Shown: positions 36,748 to 50,544 of the stretch, in pieces | How positions within the stretch are numbered: the stretch's first letter is position 1 | Layout of the letters: each line of letters begins with the position of its first letter | Source: an uncultured Duodenibacillus sp. | GTDB taxonomy: Bacteria; Pseudomonadota; Gammaproteobacteria; Burkholderiales; Burkholderiaceae_F | Length of the DNA: 64,000 nucleotides | Assembly: GCA_944390745.1 (NCBI GenBank) | Contig: CALXQK010000012.1 | Span: 343 to 64,342, forward strand | Direction: 5' to 3' | Translations under genes and position numbers: made by a program | The notes under the pieces: generated by a model | Seen by the model: only the letters and a program-made list of their open reading frames with translations | Database searches by the model: none | Told to the model about the DNA's origin: nothing

Positions 36748-36785
36748 AAAAAGCCCCGCGGGCAGAGTCACTGCATCCGCGGGGC
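36747..36785 (-). terminator. Rho-independent terminator at the end of the mcc/sir-like operon
   Basis: 9-bp GC stem GCCCCGCGG (36753-36761) / CCGCGGGGC (36777-36785). On the minus strand it is followed by TTTTTC. It lies 26 nt after the stop of the last gene. Confidence 0.55.
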
Positions 36786-36810
36786 CGGGATCCTCGGCCG
36801 GAGCGACGCG

Positions 36811-37434
36811 CTACTTGCGCACGGCGTACTTGGCGGCCAGCGCCTCAAGATAGGCGGGCACCTTTTCATCAGACCAGTCCACGAAGCCGCGCACGAACCC
36901 CACGAGGTTGCCCTTGCCGTCGAGCACGAAGACGCTCGGCACGACGTCAAGCGGCGCGTCATCGCCAATCTTCTGCTCAGGGTCGATCAGGGTGCTGAAG
37001 CCCTCGAGGTTGTAGCGCTTGATGAAGTCCTCGACGTCGCTCTTTTTCTGATCCACCGAGACCGACACCACGCGAATGGGGCTCTCAGGCTTGTTGTAGC
37101 GCTCCTGCAGCTTCTTGATCATCGGCAGCGACCGGATGCATGGCTCGCACCACGAGGCCCAGACGTCAATCAGCACGAGCTTGTCCTTGAAGCCGTTCAA
37201 GGCGTACTTCCCGCCCTTGAGATCCTCGAGCTCGGCCGTGGAGAAGCCGCGCGCGTTTCTGAGCTCAATAAAGGTGCGCAGCACCCCGGGCTTGCCCGCG
37301 ACGGGCTCGCCGTTGGCGTAGAGCTTGTGCTGAAAGCCCGGCAGCTCATTGACGTCCAGGGCGAGCGCCGGAGCGCTCGCGGCCATCTGCAGGCCGAGCG
37401 CCAGGGCAAGGGCAAGCATCCATTTCTTCATCAT
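36811..37434 (-). CDS. TlpA/ResA/CcmG-like periplasmic thiol:disulfide oxidoreductase
   Basis: Signal peptide 'MMKKWMLALALALGLQMAASAPALA' and the thioredoxin motif 'WASWCEPC'. Its ATG overlaps the upstream stop (ATGA). Confidence 0.8.
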   Translation of the reverse strand: MMKKWMLALALALGLQMAASAPALALDVNELPGFQHKLYANGEPVAGKPGVLRTFIELRNARGFSTAELEDLKGGKYALNGFKDKLVLIDVWASWCEPCIRSLPMIKKLQERYNKPESPIRVVSVSVDQKKSDVEDFIKRYNLEGFSTLIDPEQKIGDDAPLDVVPSVFVLDGKGNLVGFVRGFVDWSDEKVPAYLEALAAKYAVRK

Positions 37435-37877
37435 CAGTCTCCTCGTTTATTGTTGGATTGTTCACTGCCCGCCTGCGGGCGAAGGCGCCAGCGGCGCCAC
37501 AAAAAGAATGCCGCCGCCGCGGCTGCAAGCCACGGCGCCGCCCAGAGCAGCGCCGTGCCGCTGTTGAGATCGGGCTCGTAGCGGATCATTTCGCCGTAGC
37601 GCGCCACCATGCCGTCGAAGATCTCCTCGCGGGTCTTTCCCGCGCGCAGCTCTTCATAAATGCGCGCCTTGAGCTCGGAGGCAACGGCGCTCTCCGAGTC
37701 AAAGAGCGTGTAGTTGGCCGAGGCCGGATCGCGCAGCAGCTTGGAAATTGCAATGGCCTCCTCGTTGAGCGCCTGGCCCTGAAGGGGCGCGCGGGTCTCG
37801 GCGGCAGCCGCGCCCGCCGCCGTCGCCAGCACGAGGACCGCGGCGCAAAGCGCCGCCATGCATCGGATCTTCATCAT
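37434..37877 (-). CDS. CcmH/NrfF-like cytochrome c maturation protein lacking the CXXC motif
   Basis: 'SELKARIYEELRAGKTREEIFDGMVARYGEMIRYEPDL..TALLWAAPWL' matches the CcmH/NrfF core and C-terminal TM. Where LRCxxCQ is expected, the sequence reads 'LLRDPASANYTLFDSES'. Confidence 0.7.
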   Translation of the reverse strand: MMKIRCMAALCAAVLVLATAAGAAAAETRAPLQGQALNEEAIAISKLLRDPASANYTLFDSESAVASELKARIYEELRAGKTREEIFDGMVARYGEMIRYEPDLNSGTALLWAAPWLAAAAAAFFLWRRWRLRPQAGSEQSNNKRGD

Positions 37878-39796
37878 GCCTTCTCCCCAGGTTTTGCGCA
37901 ATCGGCCCGGGCGCCTCGCCGCACCCGCACGAGAACAAGCGCGCCGGCAAGCATCATGAAGAGCGCCCCGGCCCAGATCCAGCTCGCAAGGGGCTTGACG
38001 CTCAGCCGCACCAGCCATTCCGTCTTCGAGAGCTGATTGCCCATGGAGACGTAGTAGTCGCGCAGGAATCCATGTCCGATGCCTGCAGCCGACATCTGCA
38101 TGCCGCTTGCGACAAAGGTCTGGCGCATCGGCTGCAGCGTCGTCAGCAGGCTCTCGTCTCCGGCGCGCAGCACCTCGATGTAGGCCGCCTCGCCGAAATA
38201 GCTGCGGGTGTTGACCGGGTAGAAGCCCCGGTTGACGAAGACCACCCCGGCCAGGGGCCGTCCCGCCCCCGCATCCATGCGAACAAGCGCCTCGGACTCG
38301 TACTGCGAAACTCCAATTGCTCCGGCCATCGTCACGGCGATGCCCAGGTGCGCGATGACCGCCGCGCAGCCCAGGCGCCGGGCGCCGGGCAGAAGGCCTG
38401 CGAGCGTGGTCAGCACCAGCCACAGGGCCGAGGCCGAGGCCGCAAAGGTCATCACGTGCGAACGGGGGTCCGTGAGAAGCGCCGCGGCCGCGCCGAGCGC
38501 CAGGCTGGCGGCCGCGCAGACAAGCGCGGCTGCGGGCCTGCCCGTGCGCAGCGCCTGCGTCAGGCCGATGAGCACCGCGGCGGCAATGGCCATCGGCGCA
38601 AAGAACTGGTTGAAGTAAGGCGCCCCAACCGTGAGGCTGCGCCCGGCAATGAGCTCATAAAAAAGCGGATAAACGGTTCCGAACAGCACCGCTGCGCAGG
38701 CCGCGACCGTTAGAAAGACGCCTGCCGTAAGCAGCATGTCCTCGCGCGAGAGCGCCGTCTCGGTCTCAGCGCAGCACTCCTGCACGCGCAGCGCATAGAG
38801 CGCGAACGCGGGCAGAAGGATGATGACTGAAACGGCAAGAAGCGCCGCACCGCGGCTTGGATCCGAGGCAAAGGCGTGCACCGACTGCATCATGCCCGAG
38901 CGCACGATGAAGGTGCCCAGCAGACAGCACGCAAAGCACGCCAGCGCCAGCGCCACCGACAGGCGCTTGAGCTGCCCGCGGCGGCGCGCAAGGATGAGCG
39001 CATGCAGCAGCGCGCTCACCCCGAGCCACGGGATGAAGGAGGCGTTTTCCACCGGATCCCAGAACCACCAGCCGCCCCAGCCGAGCTCCGTATAGGCCCA
39101 CCAGGAGCCGAGCGCGTTGCCCGCCGTCAGAAAGATCCAGGTCGTCACCGAGGAGATGAACATGAAGCGCACGGGCGTGCGGCTCCATCGTCTTGACCAG
39201 AGCAGGGCGCAGGCCGCGGCAAAGCACAGCGCCAGCCCCGCGTATCCCATGAAGAGCACCGGCGGGTGCAGGATCATGCCCACATCCTGCAAAATGGGAT
39301 TGAGGTCGCGCCCCTCGACGGGCACAAGCGGCAGATTGCGCGCAAACGGGTTGGAGGTGGTGACGAGAAAGAGCCCCAGAAGGCCGGTCACGGCCAGCAT
39401 CACCGACTGCAGCCGCGCCATGAAGAGCGCGTCCCCGTCCGGCTCCTCCCGCAGGCGCACAAGGCCTGCGGCCGCCGCCCAGAGCGCGATCAGGAGCACC
39501 CACAGCAGCATCGAGCCCTCATGGCCGCCCCAGAAGGCGGCAAACTTGTAGACCGCCTCAAGCCCCGTGTTGGAGTTGTCGGCAACGTAGGCCACCGAAA
39601 AGTCGTCGGTGAGAAACGCGTGCCAGAGTATCGCCGAGCTCGCCAGAACCGCCGCGGCGGCAAAGCGTCCCGCCGGACGCCAGAGCCCGGTGAGAAAGGC
39701 GTTTTCCTGCCGGATGCCCCAGGCCGAGGCAGCAGCCGCGGCAATCGAGACCACGCAGGCAAGGATCAATAGAAAAAGTCCGAGTTCAGCCAGCAA
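37874..39796 (-). CDS. CcmF/NrfE-family haem lyase (System I)
   Basis: 640-aa polytopic ORF. WWD motif 'WGGWWFWDPVENASFIPWL' and conserved His-containing loops. Confidence 0.85.
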   Translation of the reverse strand: MLAELGLFLLILACVVSIAAAAASAWGIRQENAFLTGLWRPAGRFAAAAVLASSAILWHAFLTDDFSVAYVADNSNTGLEAVYKFAAFWGGHEGSMLLWVLLIALWAAAAGLVRLREEPDGDALFMARLQSVMLAVTGLLGLFLVTTSNPFARNLPLVPVEGRDLNPILQDVGMILHPPVLFMGYAGLALCFAAACALLWSRRWSRTPVRFMFISSVTTWIFLTAGNALGSWWAYTELGWGGWWFWDPVENASFIPWLGVSALLHALILARRRGQLKRLSVALALACFACCLLGTFIVRSGMMQSVHAFASDPSRGAALLAVSVIILLPAFALYALRVQECCAETETALSREDMLLTAGVFLTVAACAAVLFGTVYPLFYELIAGRSLTVGAPYFNQFFAPMAIAAAVLIGLTQALRTGRPAAALVCAAASLALGAAAALLTDPRSHVMTFAASASALWLVLTTLAGLLPGARRLGCAAVIAHLGIAVTMAGAIGVSQYESEALVRMDAGAGRPLAGVVFVNRGFYPVNTRSYFGEAAYIEVLRAGDESLLTTLQPMRQTFVASGMQMSAAGIGHGFLRDYYVSMGNQLSKTEWLVRLSVKPLASWIWAGALFMMLAGALVLVRVRRGARADCAKPGEKA

Positions 39797-39823
39797 GATT
39801 CAAGCTTCCTATCTTTCGCCTTC

Positions 39824-40627
39824 CTAGAGGCGCCGCCGGTTGAGCGCAAGGCGGCACAGCGCAAAAAGAACGACGATCCAGCCCAGAAGAATTCCGCACA
39901 AAAGCCCCGTCTGCGGGCGCGCCAGCGCAGCCGCGTCGGCCGCCCCCATCTGGTTGATCAGCCGAAAGACGCTTGCCGGATTGGCCAGCATCATCGCTGA
40001 GAGCGTGCTGCGCCCGAAATAGTCGGCGCCCGCCACGCTCACCACCAGAAGCGCGAGATCATAGAGAAGCACCATCACAAACCAGATGACGAGAAGCGCC
40101 GCCAGCGCCTGCGCCTTGTGCCGCACCGTCAGGCTCACCCAGTAGGACGCGAGCATGAACACAAGCGCCAGAAGCCACCCCGTGGCGGCAAGCCTTGCCA
40201 GCGCCGCCAGAAGCTCGCCCATGCCGTAGGGTACCGCAAGAAAGAGCTGCACCACGGGCAGCGCCGCAAACCCGAGCGCGAGAACGAGCGCAAGCGCCGC
40301 GGCCTGCCCGAGCGCCTTGCCCAGAAGCCACTGCGTGCGCGTGAGCGGATAGGTGAGCATCAAAAGAAGCGTTCCCGACTCCGCCTCGCCCACAAACGCG
40401 TCGTAGCACAGCATCAGCACCAGCAGCGGGAGCACGAACACGGTAAGGCTCAGAAGCGAATTCATCACCGTCGCAAGCGGCTGGTAGGCCAGCGTGCCGC
40501 CGATGGCGGCCGTGCCGAAGAACACCGCAAGCGAGAGGATGGCGAAGATGGCGCTGCCTGAAAAAAGCCACCGGCTGCGGATGCAGTCCATGAATTCCTT
40601 CTGCGCCACGATCAGGATTTCGCGCAT
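39824..40627 (-). CDS. nosY: ABC-2 type permease, NosY-like
   Basis: 267-aa ORF with 6 TM segments. N-terminal 'MREILIVAQKEFMDCIRSRW'. It lies immediately downstream of the NosF-like ATPase. Confidence 0.7.
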   Translation of the reverse strand: MREILIVAQKEFMDCIRSRWLFSGSAIFAILSLAVFFGTAAIGGTLAYQPLATVMNSLLSLTVFVLPLLVLMLCYDAFVGEAESGTLLLMLTYPLTRTQWLLGKALGQAAALALVLALGFAALPVVQLFLAVPYGMGELLAALARLAATGWLLALVFMLASYWVSLTVRHKAQALAALLVIWFVMVLLYDLALLVVSVAGADYFGRSTLSAMMLANPASVFRLINQMGAADAAALARPQTGLLCGILLGWIVVLFALCRLALNRRRL

Positions 40628-40628
40628 G

Positions 40629-41564
40629 TCAGCACCCCTCCGCGTGGTCCGGCGCCGAGAACAGTCCGCGCTCGCCCATCACAAAATATCCGAAGATGTC
40701 CGCCAGGCCCGCCTTCTGCACCTCAAAGTCAAAGAGTCCGCACTCGCGCGTGAGCGTCGCAACGACGTCCTCAAGCTCGCCGGGCGCGACGACGAGCGCC
40801 TCGCCCGAAAGCCGCGCGAGCAGCTTCGGGTGCGTCCTGAGCTTTTCGGCATCCAGGTGCGTGATGCACACGGCCAGCCCCGCGGCCGCGCGCAGCTCCT
40901 CGAGCGTTCCGGCCCCGGCAAGCCTGCCGTGGGAGATGACCGCGGCGTTGTCGAGGTAGTGCTCGACAAGCGAGAGCTCATGGGTGCAGACCACGACGCT
41001 GCAGCCCGAGTCGCGAAGCCTTGAAAGCTCGCGGTACATCAATAGCGAGGCCGCCGGATCGAGCCCCACCGTGGGCTCGTCAAGGATCAGAAGCTCGGGG
41101 CTTGTGAGCAGCGCCTGCGCAAGGCCCAGTCTCTGGCGCTGTCCCTTGGAGCACTGCCCGAGCTTGCTGCGCATGACCTCGCCCAGGCCCAGCCCCTCGG
41201 CAAGCGCCATGGCGCGCGCCTGGTCCACACGCTTGAGCGCGGCAAAGTACTTGAGGTGCGCGCGCACCGTCATCTGGTCGTAGAAGCTCACGTTCTCAGG
41301 AAGGTAGCCCACCTTCAGGGGCGAGGCCCCCGGGGCGGCGCCAAGCACCGAGATCGTGCCCGAGGCCGGCGCAAGAAGTCCCAGCGCGAGCTTCAGAAGC
41401 GTCGACTTGCCCGCGCCGTTGTGGCCGATGAGCGCCGTCATCGTCCCGGCGGGAAGCGACAGATTGATGTTTTCGAGAATCGTTCGGCGCCCGCGCCGAA
41501 AGCAAAGGTCCCGGCAGGCGATGGAGGACGGCCGGCTCGCCGCGTCTGTCAATTGCTGCATCAT
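40629..41564 (-). CDS. nosF: ABC transporter ATP-binding protein, NosF-like
   Basis: Walker A 'GHNGAGKST', signature 'CSKGQRQRL', Walker B 'LLILDEPT'. It sits between the NosD-like and NosY-like genes. Confidence 0.85.
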   Translation of the reverse strand: MMQQLTDAASRPSSIACRDLCFRRGRRTILENINLSLPAGTMTALIGHNGAGKSTLLKLALGLLAPASGTISVLGAAPGASPLKVGYLPENVSFYDQMTVRAHLKYFAALKRVDQARAMALAEGLGLGEVMRSKLGQCSKGQRQRLGLAQALLTSPELLILDEPTVGLDPAASLLMYRELSRLRDSGCSVVVCTHELSLVEHYLDNAAVISHGRLAGAGTLEELRAAAGLAVCITHLDAEKLRTHPKLLARLSGEALVVAPGELEDVVATLTRECGLFDFEVQKAGLADIFGYFVMGERGLFSAPDHAEGC

Positions 41565-41580
41565 GACGGATTCCTTCTTC

Positions 41581-42918
41581 CTAGTCCCGGCGCGCCCCGG
41601 CGACCTCGACCGGCCGCATCAGGGGATGACTGTCGGTGACGCCCTTGCCGCGGTCGATTTCAAACTGCTGCGCGAGCCAGCGCAGCAGCACCACCACGGG
41701 GCTGTCCATCAGAAACCGCGCCTCGGGATAAATCCAGAAGATCCTGTCGAGGCTGTCGTTGGGCTGATAGGGCTTGTCGGCCACGCCGTCGCCGTTGAAG
41801 TCCCAGGCCATGAAGGTGCTCCAGAAGTTGCCGCGCCCGTTGCTGCTCCACTCCAGAGGCGTGCGGCCCACGTAGCGCACCTGCGTCTTGTTGTCGATGA
41901 AGGTGTTTTCGCTGAGCACGTTGCCCTCGCCGCCGAGCGCCACGCCCACGCCCACATCGGCCGAGGCAAACCAGTTGCGCACCACGGTGTTGGCCCCGGG
42001 GCCGTAGATGAAGAGCCCCTTGCCCTCGTTGTCGAGCGCCGCACGGCCGCGCGGGTTGTGCACGCCCTCGATGCGGTTGCCCCTGACGGTGCAGCCGTCG
42101 CAGACGTTGAGCAAAATGCCGAACTCGACGCACTTGCGCGCTGTGTTGTTCTCAAAGTGGATGCGCTCGGAGCTCATCAGCGCAAAGCCTCCGATGACGC
42201 CGGCTGAGACATTGTCCCAGGCGCTGTCGCCCCGGGTATACATCCAGTGAATGCCGTACTGCGCGCCGGTAAAGAAGTTTCCGCGGCTCACGCTCTGCTC
42301 GACGTTTTCAAAGTAAAAGCCGTCGCGCACGTTGCGCGCGCTGTTGCCGGTGAGAACAGGCCTCTTGACGTAGTTGAGAAACACCCCGTCGCCGCGGTCG
42401 AGCACGTGCATGCGCCGCACGCCCTCAATCGTGCAGTCCTCGATGCGAATCCCCTCGAGGCGGTCGGCGCGGATTCCAAAGCCCGGTCCCTTGAGCACCA
42501 TGCGCCGGATGACGACGTTGTCGGCGCCGTCGGTGACGCGCACGCCCGCGTCGCGCTCGTAGAGGTTGCCGCCGTAGTTGGCCGCCGTGATGTGCTCGAC
42601 CACGGCGCCGGGCACGCGCACAGTGATGGCGCTGCCGCGGCCCGAGGCATCAATCACCGCGGCGCGGGAAACGTCCGTCGCCGCCTTCGGATCCTGCAGC
42701 TCCGGCCCCCGGAGGGTGATGGCCGCGCGCACCACAAGGCGCGTCTGGTACAGCCCCGGGGCCAGCTCGATGACGTCGCCCGGCTGCGCCTGCTCGACAA
42801 TGCGCGCGACGTCGTCGGCGGGCGTGACGCGCACGTGCGCGGCCTGCGCGACCCCGGCCGCAAGGCCGAGCGCCAGAAGCCCCTCAAGAAAAAGCGCCGG
42901 CAGCCGCAGGTGCATCAC
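41581..42918 (-). CDS. nosD: NosD-like periplasmic parallel beta-helix (CASH repeat) protein
   Basis: Signal peptide, then repeated beta-helix units ('GIRIEDCTIEG', 'GVFLNYV', 'GFYFENV', 'YGIHWMYT', 'FGILLNVCDGCTVRGNRIEG'), then 'FWIYPE...RWLAQQF' at the C-terminus. Confidence 0.8.
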   Translation of the reverse strand: MMHLRLPALFLEGLLALGLAAGVAQAAHVRVTPADDVARIVEQAQPGDVIELAPGLYQTRLVVRAAITLRGPELQDPKAATDVSRAAVIDASGRGSAITVRVPGAVVEHITAANYGGNLYERDAGVRVTDGADNVVIRRMVLKGPGFGIRADRLEGIRIEDCTIEGVRRMHVLDRGDGVFLNYVKRPVLTGNSARNVRDGFYFENVEQSVSRGNFFTGAQYGIHWMYTRGDSAWDNVSAGVIGGFALMSSERIHFENNTARKCVEFGILLNVCDGCTVRGNRIEGVHNPRGRAALDNEGKGLFIYGPGANTVVRNWFASADVGVGVALGGEGNVLSENTFIDNKTQVRYVGRTPLEWSSNGRGNFWSTFMAWDFNGDGVADKPYQPNDSLDRIFWIYPEARFLMDSPVVVLLRWLAQQFEIDRGKGVTDSHPLMRPVEVAGARRD

Positions 42919-43415
42919 TGCTCCAGAAGCTTGAGCGTGACGTCGGCATAGCCAAAGAGCGCCCCGCCCTCGCGGGCGATGAAGTCGCGCGCGGCCTGCT
43001 CGGTGCCGAAGCCCGCGGGCTCGTTGCCCATCACGCCCGGCACCCGGTGCCCGTAGACGTAGTGCAGCTGCCGCGCGTCGGCAAAGGCCTTGTCGTCGGG
43101 CTTCTTCCAGTCGGTGCGCGCCAGGTCATGGATGAAGAAGCCCTCAAGCCTGCGGGCGTTCTCGGGCTGCAGCGCGAAGGTGAAGGCGTCGCGCCCCGAG
43201 CAGAACTTCAGGGGCTCGGGCACGTCCTTGATGAAGATCTCGGCCTTGGGACCCTCGTAGTGCACGATCACCATGCCGCACAGATGGCAGCGGTCGTGGC
43301 TGCCCACCGGCACGGGGGCGTGCGCGGCGGTCTGATCAGCCTCCTGCCCGCAGCCCGCAAGCGCGAGCGTGAGCGCTGCAAGGGCGGCCTGCGCCGCCAG
43401 AGTCCAGGGTCTCAC
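42915..43415 (-). CDS. nosL: NosL-family copper chaperone lipoprotein (paralogue 2)
   Basis: I prefer the GTG at 43415, with GGGAG 8 nt upstream. Lipobox 'LALAGC'. Motif 'DRCHLCGMVIV'. The C-terminal 'GVMGNEPAGFGTEQAARDFIAREGG' is typical of NosL. Confidence 0.7.
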   Translation of the reverse strand: MRPWTLAAQAALAALTLALAGCGQEADQTAAHAPVPVGSHDRCHLCGMVIVHYEGPKAEIFIKDVPEPLKFCSGRDAFTFALQPENARRLEGFFIHDLARTDWKKPDDKAFADARQLHYVYGHRVPGVMGNEPAGFGTEQAARDFIAREGGALFGYADVTLKLLEQ

Positions 43416-43590
43416 TTTAACCAGTCTCCCTTTTTTGCGTCCTTGTACACCGGCCCTGAAAACGTGCGCCGCCCTGCAGAAGCTGCAGCGCGGCGCGCCT
43501 TGAGGCCTTCTCTGACGGATTGTCGCCCGACCCGCACGCATGAATCAAGTCCCGCGCGGGCATGCGCAGGGGCCGGGACGGCCTTGATGA

Positions 43591-44061
43591 TCAGTACTTG
43601 GCGCCGCACCCGAGGGTTTCGGCCGTCAAATCCTTAAGTCGATAAAGTTTTCCGCCGTAGCGCTTCTGGAATTCCCGCGCCTTGGCTTCATCAGCAAAGG
43701 GGGCAAGCGACGGCCCCATCACGGCCTTCTGGGAGGAGCCGTACACAAACCATGCGTCGGCCGCGTTGAAGAATCCCTCGTTCGAGGGCTTTTTCCAGTC
43801 CTCGCGTCCGGCATCGTGCATCCACAGGGTCTTCGCCTTGCCGGCATTGGCCGCCCATCCGCAGGCTGCGCCACGGGCCGAGCAATACTTGAGAACCGTT
43901 CCGTCGACAAGCTCCACGGCGCCCTTGGGGCCGGGATACTTGGTAATCCACATCGCGCACGACGCGCACTGATCCTGCGCCGTCAGAACCGGCGCGGACC
44001 ATCCCAGGGAGGGCGCAAGCAGCAGGGGGGCGACCATCGCCCCGAAAAGTTTCAGATTCAT
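43591..44061 (-). CDS. nosL: NosL-family copper chaperone (paralogue 1)
   Basis: ATG at 44061 preceded by GGAGGAG. Signal peptide. 'DQCASCAMWIT' and 'VMGPSLAPFADEAKAREFQKRYGG'. Confidence 0.7.
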   Translation of the reverse strand: MNLKLFGAMVAPLLLAPSLGWSAPVLTAQDQCASCAMWITKYPGPKGAVELVDGTVLKYCSARGAACGWAANAGKAKTLWMHDAGREDWKKPSNEGFFNAADAWFVYGSSQKAVMGPSLAPFADEAKAREFQKRYGGKLYRLKDLTAETLGCGAKY

Positions 44062-44131
44062 CGACTCCTCCTTGGAACTGTGCAGGGCGCGTGCCGCGCG
44101 CTGCGAAAGGAATTGCTGATTCCCCGGCAGG

Positions 44132-44158
44132 GGAAGGGGTGGAAGGGGTGGAAGGTGT
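44132..44158. repeat. Tandem 9-bp repeat x3 in the nrfD-like/nosL intercistronic spacer
   Basis: GGAAGGGGT GGAAGGGGT GGAAGGTGT on the plus strand. On the transcript this is ACACCUUCC ACCCCUUCC ACCCCUUCC. Confidence 0.6.
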
Positions 44159-44254
44159 GAAAAAGTGCCCCAGCCGGGCGTGCGCCGAAATCCGGACGCA
44201 CGCTCAGACTGAAGCAGTTGAGGCATCCTGCGGGGGTTCCCGCAGGGCCGGGCA

Positions 44255-45175
44255 CTAGATGCTGTAGAGCTGTCCAGCGTAAAGGATGAACAGACGCAGG
44301 CACATCATGCCCGTCACCGACGCCAGACCCGAGAGGTAGAACGCCGTGGAGTTCTTCGCGCCGCTCAGAAGAATCGGCACGAGGAATCCGACGCCCACCA
44401 CGCCGATCCAGAACTCGGTTGCCCAGGCGCCCGTCGTAAAGGCCTGCGCCGCAGCCTGAGCCGCAGCGTTGCCGCTGATGAGGGCCACCGCGATCATGAA
44501 GATGCAGAGCGCCTCGGCGGCCATGATCGGCCATTCGGCGCCGTGCAGAAGCTTCAGATCGGCCGAGTGCTGATCCGCACCGAACATGCCCGCGGCCACC
44601 ATCTTGGAGGCGGCGGCGCCGGCCGAAAGACCGGAGGCGACGAACAGCGCCGGCAGAACGGCCTGGTTGATCAGCGGGAAGCGGATCAGAGCCGAGATGA
44701 GAAAGCCCGTGTAGGCGCAGATGGTGAGCGCCAGCACCAGCACGATCCACTGCAGACCGCAGCGATGCGCATCAAACCAGCCGATGATTCCGTCAAGGAA
44801 GCCAATCTTGAAGTCATCGCGCAGCGCCACGAGCATCAGGATGCACACGAGCGGGATGTAGCCAAGCAGCGCCATCACGCCCAGACTCATCACGGAGGTC
44901 GGGTTGTAGTAGATGAGAATCCGCCAGAAATTGAGCGGATTGGTCAGGTCGAGCACCAGGCACACCATGCCGAGCACGATGGTCACAAAGCCGATCAGCG
45001 TTGCGGCCTTCAGCAGGGGCGTGTTGTCCCTTGTCTGCCTGCGGTAGAGGTTCATCATGATTGCCGTTGCGACGGCGCCGCCCGAGATGCCTGCCAGAAA
45101 CAGGTAGACGGCGATGGGCCACGGCCAGCTGATGCCCTCACTCAGACCCAGTGTAAAGTTCAACGCGATGTCCAT
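44255..45175 (-). CDS. NrfD/PsrC-family membrane quinol dehydrogenase subunit (MccD/SirD-like)
   Basis: 306-aa ORF with about 8 TM segments. NrfD-type N-terminus 'WPWPIAVYLFLAGISGGA'. It starts 3 nt after the NrfC-like gene. Confidence 0.8.
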   Translation of the reverse strand: MDIALNFTLGLSEGISWPWPIAVYLFLAGISGGAVATAIMMNLYRRQTRDNTPLLKAATLIGFVTIVLGMVCLVLDLTNPLNFWRILIYYNPTSVMSLGVMALLGYIPLVCILMLVALRDDFKIGFLDGIIGWFDAHRCGLQWIVLVLALTICAYTGFLISALIRFPLINQAVLPALFVASGLSAGAAASKMVAAGMFGADQHSADLKLLHGAEWPIMAAEALCIFMIAVALISGNAAAQAAAQAFTTGAWATEFWIGVVGVGFLVPILLSGAKNSTAFYLSGLASVTGMMCLRLFILYAGQLYSI

Positions 45176-45177
45176 CT

Positions 45178-45864
45178 TTACACTCCTTTCTTAACAATGG
45201 GGATGTAGCGCAGCGACGGCTTCGTGCCGAGTTCCGGGCGGATGCGCACGGAATCCTTCACGGCCAGCAGACGGCTGACGTAGGACTTCGGGTCGTTGAT
45301 GTCGCCGAAGATCAGCGCGTCGTACTTGCAGCTCTCCACGCAGGCGGGCTGCTGCTGCTTCTCAAGCCGGGTATGCAGACAGAAGTCGCAGTTGTCGGCG
45401 ACCTTGGTCTCCTCATTGATGAAGCGTGCGTTGTAGGGGCAGGCCACGATGCAGTACTTGCAGCCCACGCACTTCGAGGCGTCCATCGTGACGATGTTCG
45501 TCTTCGGGTCGCGATATGCGGCTCCCGTCGGGCAGACGGTCACGCACGGGGCGTTCTCGCACTGCTGGCAGGAAACACGCACATAGCGGCGCTGGGCCTG
45601 GTAGCCGCGATCGCCCTCGATTCTGTCGCCCTGCAGTTCCAGAATGAGACGCGTGCGGCCCTTGGGCAGCTTGTTGGTCTCATTGCAGGCATCCCTGCAG
45701 TCGCGGCAGCCGACGCACTTGTTCTGGTCAAAGACCATCACATAGTGAGGCTGTTTGCCGTCGCCCGTTTTTCCGCCCGTTCCGCACCCCGCAAGGGGAA
45801 GGACGAGCAGCGAGCTGGCACCGGCACCTAGGAGAAACCTTCTCCTGTCGATTCTTTCGCTCAC
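45178..45864 (-). CDS. NrfC-like Tat-exported four-cluster Fe-S protein (MccC/SirC-like)
   Basis: Tat signal 'MSERIDRRRFLLGAGAS'. 'CVGCRDCRDAC', 'CQQCENAPCVTVCPTGA', 'CVGCKYCIVACPYNA', 'CDFCLH...PACVESCKYDA'. Confidence 0.85.
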   Translation of the reverse strand: MSERIDRRRFLLGAGASSLLVLPLAGCGTGGKTGDGKQPHYVMVFDQNKCVGCRDCRDACNETNKLPKGRTRLILELQGDRIEGDRGYQAQRRYVRVSCQQCENAPCVTVCPTGAAYRDPKTNIVTMDASKCVGCKYCIVACPYNARFINEETKVADNCDFCLHTRLEKQQQPACVESCKYDALIFGDINDPKSYVSRLLAVKDSVRIRPELGTKPSLRYIPIVKKGV

Positions 45865-45918
45865 ATTTTTCTCCAGAAGCGAATCCCGCTGCGATGCAGC
45901 TGCAGCCGGATCCGCCGA

Positions 45919-46584
45919 TTAGTCTTGCTGTCGAGCTCTCGACTCGGCGTTGGCAATGGCATTGCGAAGCGCTCTTGTCTGCGCGGGGGCTGCGCCCGAA
46001 TCGAGCAGCATCCTCCACTGGGCGATCGCCTCTTCATAGCGGCCGTTCAGAAACGCGTCCTGCCCAAGCAGCATGCGCGTCTGGACGTCGAGCCTGTTCA
46101 AGGCAAGCGCCTGGTCTGCGGCGGCGCGGGCTTCGCCGGACATCCGGCGCCCGTCGCGGTAGTACAGCGCGTAGGCCGTCTTGCCGTAGAGCTCCGCCCG
46201 GGGCCCCGACAGCCCGATGGCCGCACGGTAGTCCTCGACGGCCTCCCGGTAAAAGCCCGCCTCAAGGTGGGCGTCTCCGAGCGCAACTCTTGCCGCTGCG
46301 CTTTGAGGGGCCATCTTCACGCGCCGCTGCGCCTCGGTGATCTGGGTGGTGAGCAGATATCCCACGTCGTGGTTCGTCTTCTCAACCTGCCAGTCAGACC
46401 ACCGGCCGAGCGAGGCGTAGCCCGCCGCACTCAGCACGAAGGTCACGGCCGCGAATGCCGCCATGAACGTTCTTGCGCCCGGTGTTCCCCTGCCCCGCCT
46501 GCGGTAGTCGACCGCAAGCACCGCCGTCCAGCCGAGGCCGACGACAAGCACGAGCACCGTCAATGCGTTCATGCAGTCCGCCAT
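45919..46584 (-). CDS. TPR-repeat protein, NrfG/CcmI-like haem-lyase specificity factor
   Basis: N-terminal TM segment ('ALTVLVLVVGLGWTAVLAV') followed by TPR-like repeats ('ALGDAHLEAGFYREAVEDYRAAIGL', 'GQDAFLNGRYEEAIAQWRMLL'). Confidence 0.6.
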   Translation of the reverse strand: MADCMNALTVLVLVVGLGWTAVLAVDYRRRGRGTPGARTFMAAFAAVTFVLSAAGYASLGRWSDWQVEKTNHDVGYLLTTQITEAQRRVKMAPQSAAARVALGDAHLEAGFYREAVEDYRAAIGLSGPRAELYGKTAYALYYRDGRRMSGEARAAADQALALNRLDVQTRMLLGQDAFLNGRYEEAIAQWRMLLDSGAAPAQTRALRNAIANAESRARQQD

Positions 46585-46608
46585 GTTTTCAAAGAGCGCT
46601 CCCCGTCA

Positions 46609-47376
46609 TTACTGATGGGGATTCTTCATGCCTTCGAGGTTTGCACCGCCGAAGTTCTGATGAGCTCCGACCTTGTCAACCTTGACCAACTCCAGCTCGA
46701 AGACGAGCGGGGATTCCGGAGGAATCTGACCGGCGCCATCAGCCCCGTAGGCGAGGTTGGCGGGGATCGTGAAGCGATAGCGCGATCCCTGGGGCATCAG
46801 GCGGATGCCCTCCTCAAGCCCGGGAATGATGGTCATGAGAACAAACTTCGCAGGCTGCTTGGTCTCATAGGTGCTCTCAAACACCGTGCCGTCCATGAGC
46901 GAACCGACATAGTTGACCGTGACGACGTCCTCGGTCTTTGCCTGCGGACCCGTGCCCTTCTTGAGCACTTCGTACTGCAGGCCGCTCTTGGTGACGACCA
47001 CGCCCTTCTTCTTGGCGTTCTTTGCAAGGAAGTCCTTCGCCTTGGCCGAGTTCTCGGCGGCGATCTTCTTCTTGTGCGCCTCGTAGAGCTTGTTGAGCCC
47101 CTCGGCGCGGGTGTTGAGGAACTTGAGCACGTCGTCGTCGTTCAGCCGGCTCTTGCCGCGCAGCGCTTCTTCAAAGCCCTGCACCACGAGATCCATGTTG
47201 ACCGGCGCACCGAGCTCGGTCTGCTTGAAGATCTGATCGGAGAGGTAATTGCCGACGGAGGCACCCATGCTGTAGGACTCCTTGTCCTGCTGGGTCTGAA
47301 GGCCGGCGGCAAAAGCCGTCGAGCCGGCGAGGAGCGCAGCGCAGGCGCACAGCACAATTTTCTTCATGGCGATCAT
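46609..47376 (-). CDS. Periplasmic FKBP-type peptidyl-prolyl cis-trans isomerase (FkpA/MccB-like)
   Basis: Signal peptide 'MKKIVLCACAALLAGSTAFAAG'. FKBP_C block 'VTVNYVGSLMDGTVFESTY...FVLMTIIPGLEEGIRLMPQGSRYRFTIPANLAYG'. The start is 47376 or 47367. Confidence 0.8.
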   Translation of the reverse strand: MIAMKKIVLCACAALLAGSTAFAAGLQTQQDKESYSMGASVGNYLSDQIFKQTELGAPVNMDLVVQGFEEALRGKSRLNDDDVLKFLNTRAEGLNKLYEAHKKKIAAENSAKAKDFLAKNAKKKGVVVTKSGLQYEVLKKGTGPQAKTEDVVTVNYVGSLMDGTVFESTYETKQPAKFVLMTIIPGLEEGIRLMPQGSRYRFTIPANLAYGADGAGQIPPESPLVFELELVKVDKVGAHQNFGGANLEGMKNPHQ

Positions 47377-47438
47377 CTTTTCTTGTTCATTCTCACGAGG
47401 ACCCGCGAGGATCCGCGCATCCAAGGTCTTCAGGGGGT

Positions 47439-47879
47439 TTAGGGACGCTCGAACTTGTGTCCGGAGAGCTTCCAGCCGTAGATGCCGTCGGGCATCTGCA
47501 TGACGTTGGTGTAGCCGAGCTTCATCACCTCATAGGCGGCGATTTCGCTCGAGCTGCACAGGCGGTTGGCGCAGTAGAAGACGAGCGGCGCGTTCTTGTC
47601 GGCCGGCAGCAGCTTCTTCCAGTTGCCCACGTTGAAGAAGATCGCCCCCGGGATGTACCCGTCAGCCCAGATCTCCAGCGTGTTGACGTCATAGAAGGTC
47701 ACCTCGGGACGCTCGTGCAGCTTTTCGGCCTCAAAGATCGAAATCTGGTGAATGGCCTGGCTGTAGACCGGCGCCTCTTCAATGGGCGCGTCGCCTCCGG
47801 CCATCGCCGGCAGCGCGCACAGCCCCGCAGCGGCAGCCGCCGCCGCACCCGCAAGCAAACCCTTCAGATACGCTTTCAT
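47439..47879 (-). CDS. Periplasmic single-domain rhodanese-like sulfurtransferase
   Basis: Signal peptide 'AAAGLCALPAMAGG'. 'GYIPGAI', active-site loop 'FYCANRLCSSS', 'GYTNVMQMPDGIYGW'. Confidence 0.75.
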   Translation of the reverse strand: MKAYLKGLLAGAAAAAAAGLCALPAMAGGDAPIEEAPVYSQAIHQISIFEAEKLHERPEVTFYDVNTLEIWADGYIPGAIFFNVGNWKKLLPADKNAPLVFYCANRLCSSSEIAAYEVMKLGYTNVMQMPDGIYGWKLSGHKFERP

Positions 47880-48008
47880 GATTCCTTCGTATGTTGGCGG
47901 TCAGTGCCCTGCTCCTTGTCCGGGGCCGAAGCCCGGAGGGGATTCCCTCCGGGCCTGCGGCTTGACAGGGAGATTGCGCTGACAGCGGTTGATTGAGCCG
48001 AAAGCGGC

Positions 48009-50063
48009 TTACTTGGCGTCCTTCTTGGCTTCAACGAGCGGGAAGTCGCCCTTGTCGAGGATCTGCTGAGCCTGCGTGAGATAGGCGTTGGCCGTCTCGG
48101 CGCGAAGCTTCAGGTACTCGGGAGCGTGCACGCCCCAGGAGCCGTCCTTCTCGAGCTGCGTGGTGATGTCCTTGGACTTGTCAAGGAGCATCAGGATCTG
48201 GGTCTTGGCCTCGACCGGGACCTTCGTCACCTCAAGCAGCTTCATGATGCGTTCCTGGCTGGCAACGGCGGCCTTGTAGCCGTCCTTGACCGGGTTCTGC
48301 CATTCCACGACCTCGTCATAGATCTGCTGCTGGTCGGTGTACTGCAGACCCTTCTCGAGCTCGGACAGGAAGGCGCTGTGGCAGCCCTTGTTGTTCACCA
48401 CGCCCTGTTCAGCATTGGCCGTGCGGGCGCAGGACCACATCAGGTCGAGATAGCCGTGGCCTTCGTCATCGCGGGCAATGTGCCAGCCCTTGGAGTTCGA
48501 GGCGCGCGACTGGCCCTCGGCCGGATTCATCATCTTGGCCTTCGGGTCAACCTTGATGTTCCAGAGGTGAGAACGACGGACGGCGTCGAAGCCGGCCATG
48601 TCCGGACGCTGGATGGCCGTGAAGTTCTCGCAGCTCATCGTGAACGGCATATGGCAGTCGATGCAGTCGATGTCGGCATGGGTCTTGGTCTGGGCAACCA
48701 CATCAGCCTGCGTCTCGTGGCAGTCCTGGCAGGTCTTGCGGATGGCGGGCTTGGTGTAGTAGCTCTTCCAGTCGTTGGAGGTGACTTCATGCGGGTCGTG
48801 GCAGGTGACGCAGCGCATGCCCTTTTCATAGTGAACGGACATCATGAGCTGCGAGCCTTCCGTACCGCACGACGGGCAGGAGGACTTCGTCTTCACGTTG
48901 AAGCCCTTTTCAAGCTTGCCCTGTGCAGCCGGGTTCTTCAGGTCGCTTTCGACGAAGTTCGAGCGCTGGTGGCAGCGTTCGCAGTTGGTCTGGAAGCCGT
49001 TGCTTTCAGCACCGATCAGGTGGCCGCCGGCACCGTGGCACTCCTCGCAGGCGATGCCGCGGGAGATGGTGTGCTTCTGCAGTTCCTTCGGATTGCCGAG
49101 AGCGGCAAAGAACTCTTCCTTGGTCTTGAAGTCGAACTTGAAGGCGTGGCAGACCTCGCAGTACGAGCTTGCAGGCTGGAAGAGGAATTCCTTCTCATAG
49201 GACGAGCCGTAGGAGGTCATGCCCCACTGGTGCGAGGCCGAGCCGCCCATGGCCTTCATGTCGGTCGGGAAGTCCGGAATCACCTTCTGGATTTCCTTGG
49301 CGCGCTCCGGGGTGAGCCACTGGGCCCAGCCGCGGGAGAACTGGTTGCCGCCGGCAACGAGCGTGCCCGTGCCGTCGCGCAGCAGACCGTCGCGGATGTG
49401 ATAGGCGCCGCGAACGAGCCAGGCGTCGATGTAGCCGTACTTCGTGCGGGGCGTGCCGACCGTCGCGTAGATCACGTCGGGCGTGATGCCGTCGGGAAGA
49501 ATCGAGGCCTGCGAGCCGTAGAGCTTCTTCTTGAGGTCGTTGTCGACTTCAGGATGCTCGCCCGGGAAGCGGATCGTCTGGGCATGACGGCTTCTCTTCC
49601 ACTTTTCATACTGCACGGCATGGCACTCGCCGCAGCGCTCCGGACCGACGAAGCGGTTCGGGAAGTCGAGAATCGACTTCGCGGCCAGGCGGTACTGGGA
49701 GGCCTTCGGACGACCGCCCGAGAGCTGCGAGTACTTCTGGGCGTTGCCTTCGCCAAGGAACTCGGAGCCGCGGGTGGAAATCTTGTAGACGCCCTTGATG
49801 CGGCCCTCTTCGGCGTACTTGAAGACCGGGTGGTTTTCAAAGAGCCACTCGAAGAGTTCCTTTTCCTGCACGATGTAGTCCTGCAGGGTGCGCACGCCGA
49901 TCGTGCTCTCCGTCGTGGACGGATTGTCAAAAACCTTCTGCGTCAAGGCGTTGAACTGTTTGTTGCCAACGCCAGGAGCATCAGCAGCCTGGGCACCGGC
50001 AGCAACCATGGCCGCCGTGCAAAACAGGGCGCTCGCCGCTGTTTTGATCATTGTTGTTGTCAT
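48009..50063 (-). CDS. mccA: Octahaem cytochrome c sulfite reductase, MccA/SirA type
   Basis: Signal peptide. Seven CXXCH motifs (CGECH, CEVCH, CEECH, CERCH, CVTCH, CQDCH, CIDCH) plus one CX15CH ('[18 protein letters not shown]'). 684 aa. The genomic context of NrfCD-like, FKBP, NosL and a dedicated haem lyase fits the family. Confidence 0.85.
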
Positions 50064-50180
50064 CTCAATCTCCTGATTATTCAGGCCTCTTTTGCTTTTC
50101 TTGCGAAAAAAAGAAGCGGCCGCAGACGCACGCTGTCCAAGCGGTTCGTGCGCTTCGGCTACCTTCAGTTTACGTTAAGG

Positions 50181-50213
50181 CTTCAGAAACACTTCAGAAA
50201 CACTTCAGAAACC
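50181..50213 (-). promoter_or_regulatory. Three tandem 11-bp direct repeats upstream of mccA (candidate response-regulator binding sites)
   Basis: CTTCAGAAACA CTTCAGAAACA CTTCAGAAACC on the plus strand, 118-150 bp upstream of the mccA ATG. The spacing is one helical turn. Confidence 0.5.
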
Positions 50214-50544
50214 GCGGAAAACCTTCTCCCGTCATGTCGAAAAGGCAAGACATGACCGCTTGAAACACCCCGGTTTTCCTAGGAAAGAAGAAAAGACGCC
50301 CTCTTTTCCTGCCGCGAAGAAAGAGGCGCAGAATCAGGCGCTTGCAGGACGCTTTTCTTTCGCATCCGCGCAGCAGGCAGCTCCATTTCCTTCTTCTCGG
50401 CTGATGCCTTCGATCGACAAACGTGACCAAAAGCACTACGTATTAGGTATTTACACCTAGGCCTCATGAGGTACAAGGTCTTTTTTACAACACTCCTCTT
50501 TTTTGGGGAGATCACCCCTGCGCCGCATGCAGCGTCAGAACGAA

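What the first reader, a model, noticed from the sequence alone, without database searches (positions are those of the whole stretch)
36811..50213. Complete MccA/SirA-type octahaem sulfite-respiration locus (14 co-directional genes)
All genes are on the minus strand with short or overlapping junctions. In order they are:
- octahaem cytochrome (7 CXXCH + CX15CH)
- periplasmic rhodanese
- FKBP isomerase
- TPR NrfG-like protein
- NrfC-like Tat Fe-S protein
- NrfD-like quinol dehydrogenase
- two NosL proteins
- NosD, NosF and NosY
- CcmF/NrfE-like haem lyase
- CcmH/NrfF-like protein
- thioredoxin-like protein

A terminator follows. This combines the gene families reported for the Wolinella succinogenes mcc cluster (MccA, FKBP MccB, MccC, MccD, NosL-like) with those of the Shewanella oneidensis sir cluster (System-I lyase SirEFG plus thioredoxin, NosLDFY-like). 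It predicts Dsr-independent respiratory reduction of sulfite to sulfide. No cognate two-component system is present in the window. If the organism is a gut Sutterellaceae-like bacterium, this would be relevant to intestinal H2S production.
Basis: partly seen in the sequence, partly recalled or inferred. Interest (0 to 1): 0.8.

Follow-up and report, generated by a model that had tools for sequence, protein, structure and literature searches.

The report
Gut Sutterella cytochrome-type sulfite reductase operon
This is an intact 14-gene cluster in a gut Sutterella bacterium for a copper-and-haem enzyme that turns sulfite into hydrogen sulfide; the system is already known from Shewanella, but gut sulfide surveys read here do not count it.

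Summary
Fourteen intact minus-strand genes occupy 36811-50063.

**The cytochrome.** The 684-aa protein is a clear MccA/SirA:
- E = 6.8e-214 to the Wolinella MccA structure 4RKM, the only PDB hit.
- All seven CXXCH sites and the CX15CH site align with 4RKM.
- All eight catalytic and Cu-binding residues are conserved.

**What kind of cluster it is.** The organism is a gut Sutterella/Duodenibacillus. The closest genome is HRGM_Genome_2132 (98% MccA identity). The locus is not a Wolinella/Shewanella hybrid. Shewanella, Ferrimonas and Marinobacter sir clusters already contain all 13 gene families in the same core order. The epsilonproteobacterial loci examined show only four of them.

**Differences from Shewanella.**
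- The haem-lyase genes sit co-directionally at the 3' end.
- NosL is duplicated.
- The NrfF/CcmH-like protein has lost both CXXC cysteines.
- No ToxR-type or two-component regulator is present. A LysR gene abuts the cluster.

**Inferred function.** Quinol-dependent periplasmic reduction of sulfite to sulfide.

**Verdict.** A new member of a known kind, with moderate interest. About 25 Sutterellaceae genomes carry it under generic names. The two gut H2S surveys I read count only Dsr and Asr.

The parts
48009..50063 (-). mccA/sirA: periplasmic octahaem c, Cu-dependent sulfite reductase (684 aa, Sec signal peptide)
   Evidence: The only PDB hit is MccA 4RKM, E = 6.8e-214 over residues 11-671. It has 7 CXXCH plus CX15CH, and all 8 catalytic and Cu residues are conserved. 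Identity is 67% to Shewanella SirA-type proteins.
47439..47879 (-). periplasmic single-domain rhodanese (146 aa), role unknown
   Evidence: PF00581, E = 1.2e-9. It has a signal-peptide-like N-terminus and the active-site loop CANRLCS at residue 103. The gene is present at this position in Shewanella-type clusters and absent from the epsilonproteobacterial ones.
46609..47376 (-). periplasmic FKBP-type peptidyl-prolyl isomerase (about 255 aa; the MccB-type gene that follows mccA in the epsilonproteobacterial loci)
   Evidence: FKBP_N plus FKBP_C, E = 6e-27 and 8e-23. The 255-aa start is supported by independent gene calls and by the signal peptide.
45919..46572 (-). membrane-anchored TPR protein, NrfG/SirG-like apocytochrome chaperone
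   Evidence: NCBIfam NrfG, E = 3.4e-22, below cutoff. Pfam TPR_CcmH_CycH. Two N-terminal hydrophobic segments. SirG binds SirA and aids its maturation in Shewanella (PMC6976685).
45178..45864 (-). mccC/sirC: Tat-exported protein with four [4Fe-4S] clusters
   Evidence: Fer4_11. NrfC model at 230 bits, below cutoff. RRRF Tat motif and four Cys cluster motifs.
44255..45175 (-). mccD/sirD: NrfD-family membrane quinol dehydrogenase
   Evidence: PF03916, E = 9e-63. Seven or eight hydrophobic helices.
43591..44061 (-). nosL copy 1 (156 aa, Sec-type signal, no lipobox)
   Evidence: PF05573, E = 1.6e-31. PDB NosL 7OG7, E = 8e-22, with the CxxCxM motif aligned.
42915..43415 (-). nosL copy 2 (166 aa, lipoprotein signal LAGC)
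   Evidence: PF05573, E = 8.9e-41. PDB NosL 7OG7 and 7OSF, E about 1e-27. It is 38% identical to copy 1.
41581..42918 (-). nosD-like periplasmic beta-helix protein
   Evidence: TIGR04247 at 341 bits, above the cutoff of 300. PDB NosD 7O0Y, E = 4e-76.
40629..41564 (-). nosF-like ABC ATPase
   Evidence: ABC_tran, E = 1.3e-30. Walker A motif GHNGAGKS.
39824..40627 (-). nosY-like ABC-2 permease
   Evidence: ABC2_membrane_2, E = 1.9e-25. Six or seven hydrophobic helices.
37874..39796 (-). nrfE/ccmF-like (SirE-type) haem lyase
   Evidence: CcmF_C plus Cytochrom_C_asm. NrfE model NF007691 at 416 bits, above the cutoff of 394. WGGWWFWD motif.
37434..37877 (-). nrfF/ccmH-like (SirF-type) protein lacking the CXXC motif
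   Evidence: PF03918, E = 7e-27. LRDPASAN aligns with LRCPKCQN of the E. coli and P. aeruginosa CcmH structures. The only cysteines lie in the signal peptide.
36811..37434 (-). periplasmic thioredoxin-like protein (SirH / TlpA / ResA type)
   Evidence: Thioredoxin_8, AhpC-TSA and Redoxin. ResA model, E = 1e-20, below cutoff. CEPC motif.
36747..36786 (-). terminator-like hairpin plus T-run after the last gene
   Evidence: A 10-bp GC stem followed by UUUUU. The simple terminator scan also hits this site.
50064..50543 (-). mccA leader and promoter region. It contains the conserved box CTTAACGTAAACTGAA (50164-50179) and three 11-bp-spaced GTTTCTGAAG copies (50181-50212).
   Evidence: The box keeps its position (-101 to -126) in 13 Sutterellaceae loci. 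The upstream flavocytochrome gene ends in its own terminator at 50544-50569.
35833..36747 (+). LysR-family regulator abutting the 3' end. It is a candidate regulator and the link is unproven.
   Evidence: HTH_1 plus LysR_substrate. Its 77% homologue lies divergently upstream of mccA in L007 and L034.

Best explanation
The locus encodes a complete Shewanella-type (sir) MccA sulfite respiration system in a gut Sutterella/Duodenibacillus bacterium.

Shown by sequence:
- An exported octahaem cytochrome carries every MccA haem site, active-site residue and Cu(I)-ligating cysteine.
- A Tat-exported protein with four [4Fe-4S] clusters and an NrfD-type membrane subunit are present.
- A NosL(x2)-NosD-NosF-NosY set is present.
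- An NrfE/NrfF/NrfG-like System-I haem lyase and a thioredoxin-like protein are present.
- A periplasmic FKBP isomerase and a periplasmic rhodanese are present.

Inferred from work on Wolinella MccA and Shewanella SirA:
- Menaquinol is oxidised at the NrfD-like subunit.
- Electrons pass through the Fe-S protein and the haem chain of (probably trimeric) MccA to the haem 2 / Cu(I) site.
- There sulfite receives six electrons and leaves as sulfide.
- The NrfEFG-like lyase attaches haem 8 to the CX15CH site, and the general Ccm system serves the seven CXXCH sites.
- NosL hands Cu(I) through NosDFY to apo-MccA.
- FKBP assists folding.

The rhodanese role is unknown. The NrfF-like protein can only be a scaffold here, because it has no redox cysteines. 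Any thiol chemistry would have to come from another thiol-disulfide oxidoreductase such as the thioredoxin-like protein, which keeps a CEPC motif.
For: - MccA identity: E = 6.8e-214 to 4RKM, sole PDB hit; 7 CXXCH plus CX15CH aligned; window Y124, K208, Y285, Y301, R367, K393, C399, C478 match the W. succinogenes residues listed in PMC9250108; conserved in 17 of 18 aligned family members, P0054 carrying Ala at the C495 column.
- Accessory families.
- Same 13 families and same core order in Shewanella, Ferrimonas and Marinobacter.
- In S. oneidensis, sirA and sirEF are essential for sulfite reduction, and sirG and sirH improve it (PMC6976685).
- The same cluster is conserved in about 25 Sutterellaceae genomes with all ORFs intact, which argues for selection on function.
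- Identical gene models are found on independent contigs.
Against: - There are no activity, expression or growth data for any Sutterellaceae.
- The window cannot show whether ccmABCDE, menaquinone synthesis, formate dehydrogenase or hydrogenase exist, or whether Dsr and Asr are absent.
- The NrfF-like protein lacks both redox cysteines, so haem 8 attachment may differ from the model or be less efficient.
- Three long junctions with hairpins mean that a single transcript is not established.
- MccA also reduces nitrite in vitro (PMC9250108).
Confidence: 0.85

Rival explanations
1. The enzyme is expressed, but its physiological job is detoxification of sulfite (for example food-additive or neutrophil-derived sulfite, or sulfite released by sulfonate degraders) and not energy-conserving respiration.
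For: Sutterella is described as a consumer of H2 through nitrate/nitrite reduction (bioRxiv 10.64898/2026.06.24.733704). NrfD-type modules of MccD show poorly defined ion channels (PMC8076601), so the reductase itself may not be electrogenic.
Against: The enzyme is wired to the quinone pool through dedicated NrfC/NrfD-like subunits, as in organisms that grow by sulfite respiration. Fourteen genes are a heavy investment for detoxification. Detoxification and respiration are also not mutually exclusive.
Confidence: 0.1
2. The physiological substrate is not sulfite but nitrite or another oxyanion (selenite, thiosulfate-derived species). The cluster would then be a second nitrite-ammonifying or oxyanion reductase.
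For: MccA reduces nitrite in vitro (PMC9250108). A periplasmic rhodanese of unknown role is encoded in the cluster.
Against: All sulfite-specific active-site residues and both Cu cysteines are conserved. A copper-delivery module is maintained. In S. oneidensis the sir mutants keep nitrite reduction and lose only sulfite reduction (PMC6976685).
Confidence: 0.04
3. The cluster is a silent or decaying horizontally acquired island. It cannot make holo-MccA because the NrfF-like protein has lost its CXXC motif.
For: The motif is LRDPASAN where CcmH has LRCPKCQN. The closest non-Sutterellaceae relatives are Shewanella at 67% identity.
Against: All 14 ORFs are intact. Gene order and chromosomal position next to folE2 are conserved across many species. 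None of the 19 MccA-linked NrfF-like proteins examined, including functional Shewanella-type ones, keeps the second cysteine. Loss of CXXC is therefore a family trait and not decay. GC3 is typical of the host.
Confidence: 0.03
4. The cytochrome belongs to another octahaem family (tetrathionate reductase OTR, octahaem nitrite reductase, HAO-like).
For: Pfam gives only generic multihaem hits, and NCBIfam has no MccA model.
Against: At E <= 0.01 the only PDB sequence match is MccA. The haem-site order, the CX15CH site and the active-site residues all match MccA.
Confidence: 0.01

Closest known systems
Shewanella oneidensis sir cluster (sirA...sirM operon plus sirEFH; Shirodkar 2011; PMC6976685)
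   Same: All 13 gene families are shared. The core order is identical: cytochrome, rhodanese, FKBP, TPR, Fe-S protein, NrfD-like, NosL, NosD, NosF, NosY (Shewanella, Ferrimonas and Marinobacter loci). Both have the CX12NKGCH form of the haem 8 site, a System-I NrfEFG-like lyase with a thioredoxin, and a NrfF-like protein without an intact CXXC. MccA identity is 67%.
   Different: - The lyase genes are co-directional at the 3' end here. In Shewanella they are divergent upstream.
- NosL is duplicated, giving one lipoprotein and one soluble form.
- The NrfF-like protein has no cysteine at all. Shewanella keeps one.
- No ToxR-type SirR is present. A LysR gene abuts the cluster.
- The host is a betaproteobacterial obligate gut commensal.
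Wolinella succinogenes mcc cluster (MccA structure 4RKM; Kern 2011, Hermann 2015)
   Same: The catalytic subunit is the same: 49% identity, with all haem sites, active-site residues and Cu cysteines conserved. An FKBP, an Fe-S protein and an NrfD-like protein follow mccA (epsilonproteobacterial loci L041-L044).
   Different: The epsilonproteobacterial loci examined lack the rhodanese, the TPR protein, NosDFY and the System-I lyase. From my own knowledge, Wolinella uses the System-II lyase CcsA1 and the MccRS two-component system. Neither is present here.
E. coli NrfEFG haem lyase and NrfCD quinol dehydrogenase of cytochrome c nitrite reductase
   Same: The best NCBIfam models for five of the genes are NrfC, NrfD, NrfE, NrfF and NrfG. 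The logic is the same: a dedicated lyase for one non-standard haem site plus an Fe-S/NrfD module.
   Different: All but one NrfE model score below the equivalog cutoffs. The target motif is CX15CH and not CXXCK. The NrfF-like protein lacks CXXC. The catalytic subunit is MccA and not NrfA.
NosLDFY copper-delivery machinery of nitrous oxide reductase (PDB 7O0Y, 7OSF, 7OG7)
   Same: NosD (E = 4e-76) and both NosL copies (E = 1e-27 and 8e-22) match the solved proteins, and the CxxCxM motif is retained. The NosD model passes its NCBIfam cutoff.
   Different: No nosZ is present in the window. The presumed client is the single Cu(I) site of MccA and not CuZ/CuA.

Membership tests
MccA/SirA octahaem sulfite reductase | Eight haem c sites: seven CXXCH plus one CX15CH (or CX17CH) as site 8, in the MccA order | tested here: met
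   Sites at residues 144, 302, 339, 361, 418, 445 and 467, plus C545-X15-CH. Each aligns with the corresponding 4RKM site.
MccA/SirA octahaem sulfite reductase | Active-site residues Y123, K208, Y285, Y301, R366, K393 (W. succinogenes numbering, PMC9250108) | tested here: met
   The window residues are Y124, K208, Y285, Y301, R367 and K393. They are invariant in all 18 aligned family members.
MccA/SirA octahaem sulfite reductase | Two cysteines that ligate the active-site Cu(I) (C399, C495) | tested here: met
   The window residues are C399 and C478.
MccA/SirA octahaem sulfite reductase | Full-length sequence similarity to MccA and not to other octahaem families | tested here: met
   4RKM matches at E = 6.8e-214 over residues 11-671 and is the only PDB hit. 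Identity is 49% to Wolinella and 67% to Shewanella.
MccA/SirA octahaem sulfite reductase | Sulfite-to-sulfide activity, Cu content, homotrimer | not testable with these tools
   This needs protein or cells. No structure prediction was run because the sequence evidence was decisive.
Shewanella-type sir gene cluster | Cytochrome followed by rhodanese, FKBP, NrfG-like TPR, NrfC-like, NrfD-like, NosL, NosD, NosF, NosY | tested here: met
   The order is the same in L030, L035, L037, L038 and L045 and in all sufficiently long Sutterellaceae loci.
Shewanella-type sir gene cluster | Dedicated System-I lyase (NrfE-like, NrfF-like) plus thioredoxin-like protein in the cluster | tested here: met
   The genes are present but sit at the 3' end and are co-directional. 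In Shewanella they are divergent upstream.
Shewanella-type sir gene cluster | ToxR-family activator SirR next to the cluster (PMC6976685) | tested here: not met
   No ToxR-type gene is found among the annotated genes of the window. The neighbouring regulator is LysR-type. This is a regulatory difference and does not touch the enzyme system.
Wolinella-type mcc gene cluster | System-II lyase CcsA1 and MccRS two-component system (own knowledge of Kern 2011; that paper is not held) | tested here: not met
   There is no histidine kinase or response regulator among the annotated genes. The lyase is CcmF/NrfE-type.
CcmH/NrfF thiol-disulfide oxidoreductase | Redox-active LRCXXC motif | tested here: not met
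   LRDPASAN aligns with LRCPKCQN of 2KW0 and 2HL7. The fold family (PF03918) is met, but the redox function cannot be.
NosLDFY copper-delivery system | NosL with CxxCxM motif, NosD beta-helix, ABC ATPase and ABC-2 permease encoded together | tested here: met

The most novel reading that the evidence does not exclude
MccA-type sulfite respiration in Sutterellaceae (Sutterella, Duodenibacillus, Parasutterella) is a third, so far uncounted and quantitatively relevant route to H2S in the human and animal gut. It would be driven by H2 or formate and fed by sulfite leaking from taurine and sulfonate degraders or from the diet. Gene-based estimates of gut sulfidogenic capacity that use only dsrAB and asrABC would then be systematically too low.
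Probability: 0.25. Interest if true: 0.65.

Novelty: new member of a known kind. Interest (0 to 1): 0.4.

Why it matters
Gut hydrogen sulfide is linked to colitis and colorectal cancer. The two gut surveys I read treat Dsr and Asr as the only sulfite-to-sulfide enzymes (PMC9016944; bioRxiv 10.64898/2026.06.24.733704).

A complete third system is conserved across about 25 Sutterellaceae genomes, including cultured S. wadsworthensis, S. parvirubra and D. massiliensis. One homologue was seen on 533 contigs. All carry only generic names such as "cytochrome C". This gives a directly testable addition to the gut sulfur budget. It would also give asaccharolytic, H2- and formate-using Sutterella a further electron acceptor.

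For cytochrome biogenesis, the finding that all 19 MccA-linked NrfF-like proteins lack an intact CXXC is a small but clean clue. It suggests that attachment of haem to CX15CH does not use the usual CcmH thiol chemistry.

Tried and rejected
- **Other octahaem families (OTR, ONR, HAO).** Rejected, because MccA is the only PDB hit and all motifs align.
- **"Hybrid of Wolinella and Shewanella clusters".** Rejected, because Shewanella-type clusters already hold every family.
- **Flavocytochrome c gene (50596-52560) as part of the locus.** Rejected. It has its own terminator (50544-50569). A roughly 530-nt gap separates it from mccA. It is absent upstream of mccA in most relatives.
- **Antisense 709-aa ORF opposite mccA.** This is a high-GC shadow ORF. 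It was not selected by codon-position GC.
- **Two-component, ToxR-type or MccRS-like regulators.** None found among the gene models annotated.
- **LysR as cognate regulator.** Only suggestive. It is adjacent in the window clade and divergent from mccA in L007 and L034. It is not found near the cluster in other species.
- **Rfam and tRNA scans of the window.** Nothing found.
- **Sigma-70 promoter scan.** No hits.
- **Literature.** No held paper links the octahaem MccA to Sutterella-family names. The "mccA" hits in gut H2S papers refer to an unrelated cysteine-metabolism gene. Kern 2011 and Hermann 2015 are not held, so I could not check whether they already list Sutterella.
- **Context look-ups that led nowhere.** The thioredoxin gene was found only on an 898-nt contig. 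P0049 is not on record. The Parasutterella-type contig ends just after mccA.
- **Neighbouring molybdoenzyme as thiosulfate reductase.** The best hit is PhsA, but far below cutoff (290 against 694 bits), so no claim is made.


Full report
**Observation.** Between 36811 and 50063 the minus strand carries 14 consecutive ORFs. All show the high third-position GC of real genes in this 65% GC window.
- multihaem cytochrome
- rhodanese
- FKBP_N plus FKBP_C
- TPR (NrfG-like)
- NrfC-like ferredoxin
- NrfD
- two NosL
- NosD, which passes the TIGR04247 cutoff
- ABC ATPase
- ABC-2 permease
- CcmF/NrfE, which passes NF007691
- CcmH/NrfF
- thioredoxin-like protein

Gene calls on identical metagenome contigs agree and fix the shorter starts. 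FKBP is 255 aa, the NosL proteins are 156 and 166 aa, and the CcmH-like protein is 147 aa. A 10-bp GC hairpin followed by UUUUU lies 25 nt after the last stop codon.

Ten junctions are 62 nt or less or overlap. Three are 129, 193 and 175 nt and fold into GC-rich hairpins. One transcript is therefore plausible but not shown.

**The cytochrome is MccA.** Against all PDB sequences the only hit is Wolinella succinogenes MccA (4RKM), at E = 6.8e-214 over residues 11-671. I rebuilt the 4RKM sequence from that alignment and aligned it with the window protein and 16 family members.
- All seven CXXCH sites and the CX15CH site (C545...C561-H562) fall in the same columns.
- The eight residues reported as catalytically important are Y123, K208, Y285, Y301, R366, K393, C399 and C495 (PMC9250108).
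- They correspond to window Y124, K208, Y285, Y301, R367, K393, C399 and C478. Seven of the eight columns are invariant across the 18 aligned sequences; at the C495 column one member (P0054) has Ala.

The haem 8 site has the CX12NKGCH form described for Shewanella SirA (PMC6976685).

**Accessory proteins, read from sequence.**
- The Fe-S protein has an RRRF Tat motif and four cysteine cluster motifs.
- The NrfD-like protein has seven or eight hydrophobic helices.
- The rhodanese has a signal peptide and the loop CANRLCS.
- The lyase has the WGGWWFWD motif.
- The thioredoxin-like protein has CEPC.
- Both NosL copies keep CxxCxM and match solved NosL. One has a lipobox (LAGC) and the other a plain signal peptide.
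- NosD matches the solved NosD of the NosDFY complex at E = 4e-76.

**Host and relatives.** The best genome match is a human-gut MAG, Sutterella sp. HRGM_Genome_2132, at 98% MccA identity. Duodenibacillus MAGs follow at 93%. About 25 further genomes labelled Sutterella, Duodenibacillus or Sutterellaceae match at 79-84%. These include the cultured S. wadsworthensis 2_1_59BFAA, S. parvirubra YIT 11816 and D. massiliensis. Shewanella comes next at 67%.

Exact copies of the protein occur on seven metagenome contigs. In the protein database the Sutterella and Parasutterella homologues form clusters of hundreds of members. One was seen on 533 contigs. They are named only "cytochrome C", "cytochrome c3 family protein" or "hypothetical protein".

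**What kind of cluster.** I ran tblastn with all 14 proteins against the 45 fetched loci.
- Shewanella, Ferrimonas and Marinobacter loci contain the same 13 families.
- They share the core order: cytochrome, rhodanese, FKBP, TPR, Fe-S protein, NrfD-like, NosL, NosD, NosF, NosY.
- In those loci the lyase, NrfF-like and thioredoxin genes sit divergently upstream.
- Epsilonproteobacterial loci (Arcobacter, Sulfurospirillum, Sulfurimonas, Helicobacteraceae) show only cytochrome, FKBP, Fe-S protein and NrfD-like.

The window is therefore a Shewanella-type sir cluster and not a merger of two types. In every Sutterellaceae locus long enough to see it, the lyase module follows nosY co-directionally. 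About half of them have two NosL genes.

The CcmH/NrfF-like protein has LRDPASAN where E. coli and P. aeruginosa CcmH have the redox motif LRCPKCQN. Its only cysteines lie in the signal peptide.

Across the window and 18 informative related loci, none keeps the second cysteine. Thirteen have one cysteine, including S. wadsworthensis and Shewanella. Six have none: the window, four Sutterellaceae and Ferrimonas senticii.

Loss of CXXC is thus a trait of MccA-linked NrfF-like proteins and not decay. PMC6976685 calls SirF a thiol-oxidoreductase homologue. In the passages I searched it does not comment on this.

**Regulation.** No histidine kinase, response regulator or ToxR-type gene occurs among the gene models I annotated. 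Shewanella uses the ToxR-family SirR.

A LysR gene (35833-36747, plus strand) converges on the last gene. In two sister genomes (L007, L034) its 77% homologue lies divergently upstream of mccA. No homologue was detected in the flanks sampled for other Sutterellaceae, though most of those loci end before the region downstream of the thioredoxin gene.

A box CTTAAnGTAannCTTAa keeps its position 101-126 nt before the mccA start in 13 Sutterellaceae loci, whatever gene lies upstream. Its function is unknown.

A small two-helix membrane ORF and an HTH gene lie upstream of mccA in many relatives. This may be no more than conserved synteny.

**Mechanism.** The sequence shows every component needed. 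From the Wolinella and Shewanella work (PMC6976685, PMC8076601, PMC9250108, and my own knowledge of Kern 2011, Hermann 2015 and Shirodkar 2011) I infer this path:
1. Quinol is oxidised at the NrfD-like subunit.
2. Electrons pass to the Fe-S protein.
3. They travel along the MccA haem chain to the haem 2 / Cu(I) site.
4. Sulfite is reduced by six electrons to sulfide in the periplasm.

The NrfEFG-like lyase serves haem 8. NosL and NosDFY deliver Cu(I). FKBP assists folding. Energy conservation would depend on the donor enzymes, which are outside the window.

**Novelty.** The system is known, and the genes are already public in Sutterella genomes. In the held library no paper connects the octahaem MccA with Sutterella-family names. 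The two gut H2S surveys I read count only Dsr and Asr. Two key papers are not held, so earlier mention of Sutterella cannot be excluded. I rate this as a new member of a known kind with moderate interest. The main value is a testable, probably overlooked, sulfide route in a common gut family.

Noticed in passing
window 37434-37877 (-); L011, L012, L014, L020, L022-L026, L028-L030, L033, L035-L038, L045: None of the 19 MccA-linked NrfF/CcmH-like proteins examined keeps the LRCXXC redox motif. Thirteen have one cysteine. Six, including the window, have none.
   Followed up: partly
window 50164-50179 (-): The box CTTAACGTAAACTGAA (consensus CTTAAnGTAannCTTAa) keeps its position at -101 to -126 from the mccA start in 13 Sutterellaceae loci, whatever gene lies upstream. 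It may be a promoter or a regulator site.
   Followed up: partly
window 50181-50212: Three exact copies of GTTTCTGAAG at 11-bp spacing lie immediately upstream of the conserved box. They are absent from the closest relatives L005, L006, L007 and L034.
   Followed up: partly
window 53296-53724 (-) and 52695-53330 (-): These are a 142-aa two-helix membrane ORF with no Pfam hit and a 211-aa HTH protein. Homologues lie directly upstream of mccA in L008-L016 and L018. In the window lineage a flavocytochrome c gene is inserted between them and mccA. They may be regulators, or the pattern may be synteny only.
   Followed up: partly
window 35833-36747 (+); L007 8637-9545; L034 8338-9246: The LysR gene sits at the 3' end of the cluster in the window. 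Its homologue sits divergently upstream of mccA in two sister genomes.
   Followed up: partly
window 47880-48008, 44062-44254, 43416-43590 (-): The three long intergenic gaps inside the cluster each fold into strong GC-rich hairpins. The one before nosL2 is followed by GTTTTC. They may be attenuators or mRNA stabilisers.
   Followed up: no
L026 (Duodenibacillus massiliensis) 16174-17558: The cluster of the type strain has nosD, but tblastn detects no nosL, nosF or nosY between nrfD and the lyase gene.
   Followed up: no
L028, L029, L033 (Shewanella chilikensis, indica, carassii): These sir clusters lack the NrfC-like and NrfD-like genes. The TPR gene is followed directly by nosL.
   Followed up: no
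window 24623-29601 (+): A Tat-exported molybdopterin oxidoreductase is followed by a ferredoxin with four [4Fe-4S] clusters and a TorD-like chaperone. Its best model is thiosulfate reductase PhsA, far below cutoff (290 against 694 bits). A second LysR gene lies upstream at 23108-24082.
   Followed up: partly
window 50596-52560 (-) and 60955-62481 (+): There are two flavocytochrome c genes (TIGR01813, 551 and 485 bits). The first carries an N-terminal tetrahaem domain. The second lies next to a sigma-54 activator with a GAF domain at 59005-60669.
   Followed up: no
window 8021-12119 (+): A LarA-like (lactate racemase) gene is followed by AIR-carboxylase-like and nickel-insertion genes, which looks like a LarABC-type set. 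A LarA-like gene also lies just upstream of mccA on the Parasutterella-type contig L050.
   Followed up: no
window 16812-19693 (-): A heavy-metal P-type ATPase (TIGR01525, 498 bits) lies next to an HMA_2 protein. It could export copper or zinc. No link to MccA copper supply was tested.
   Followed up: no
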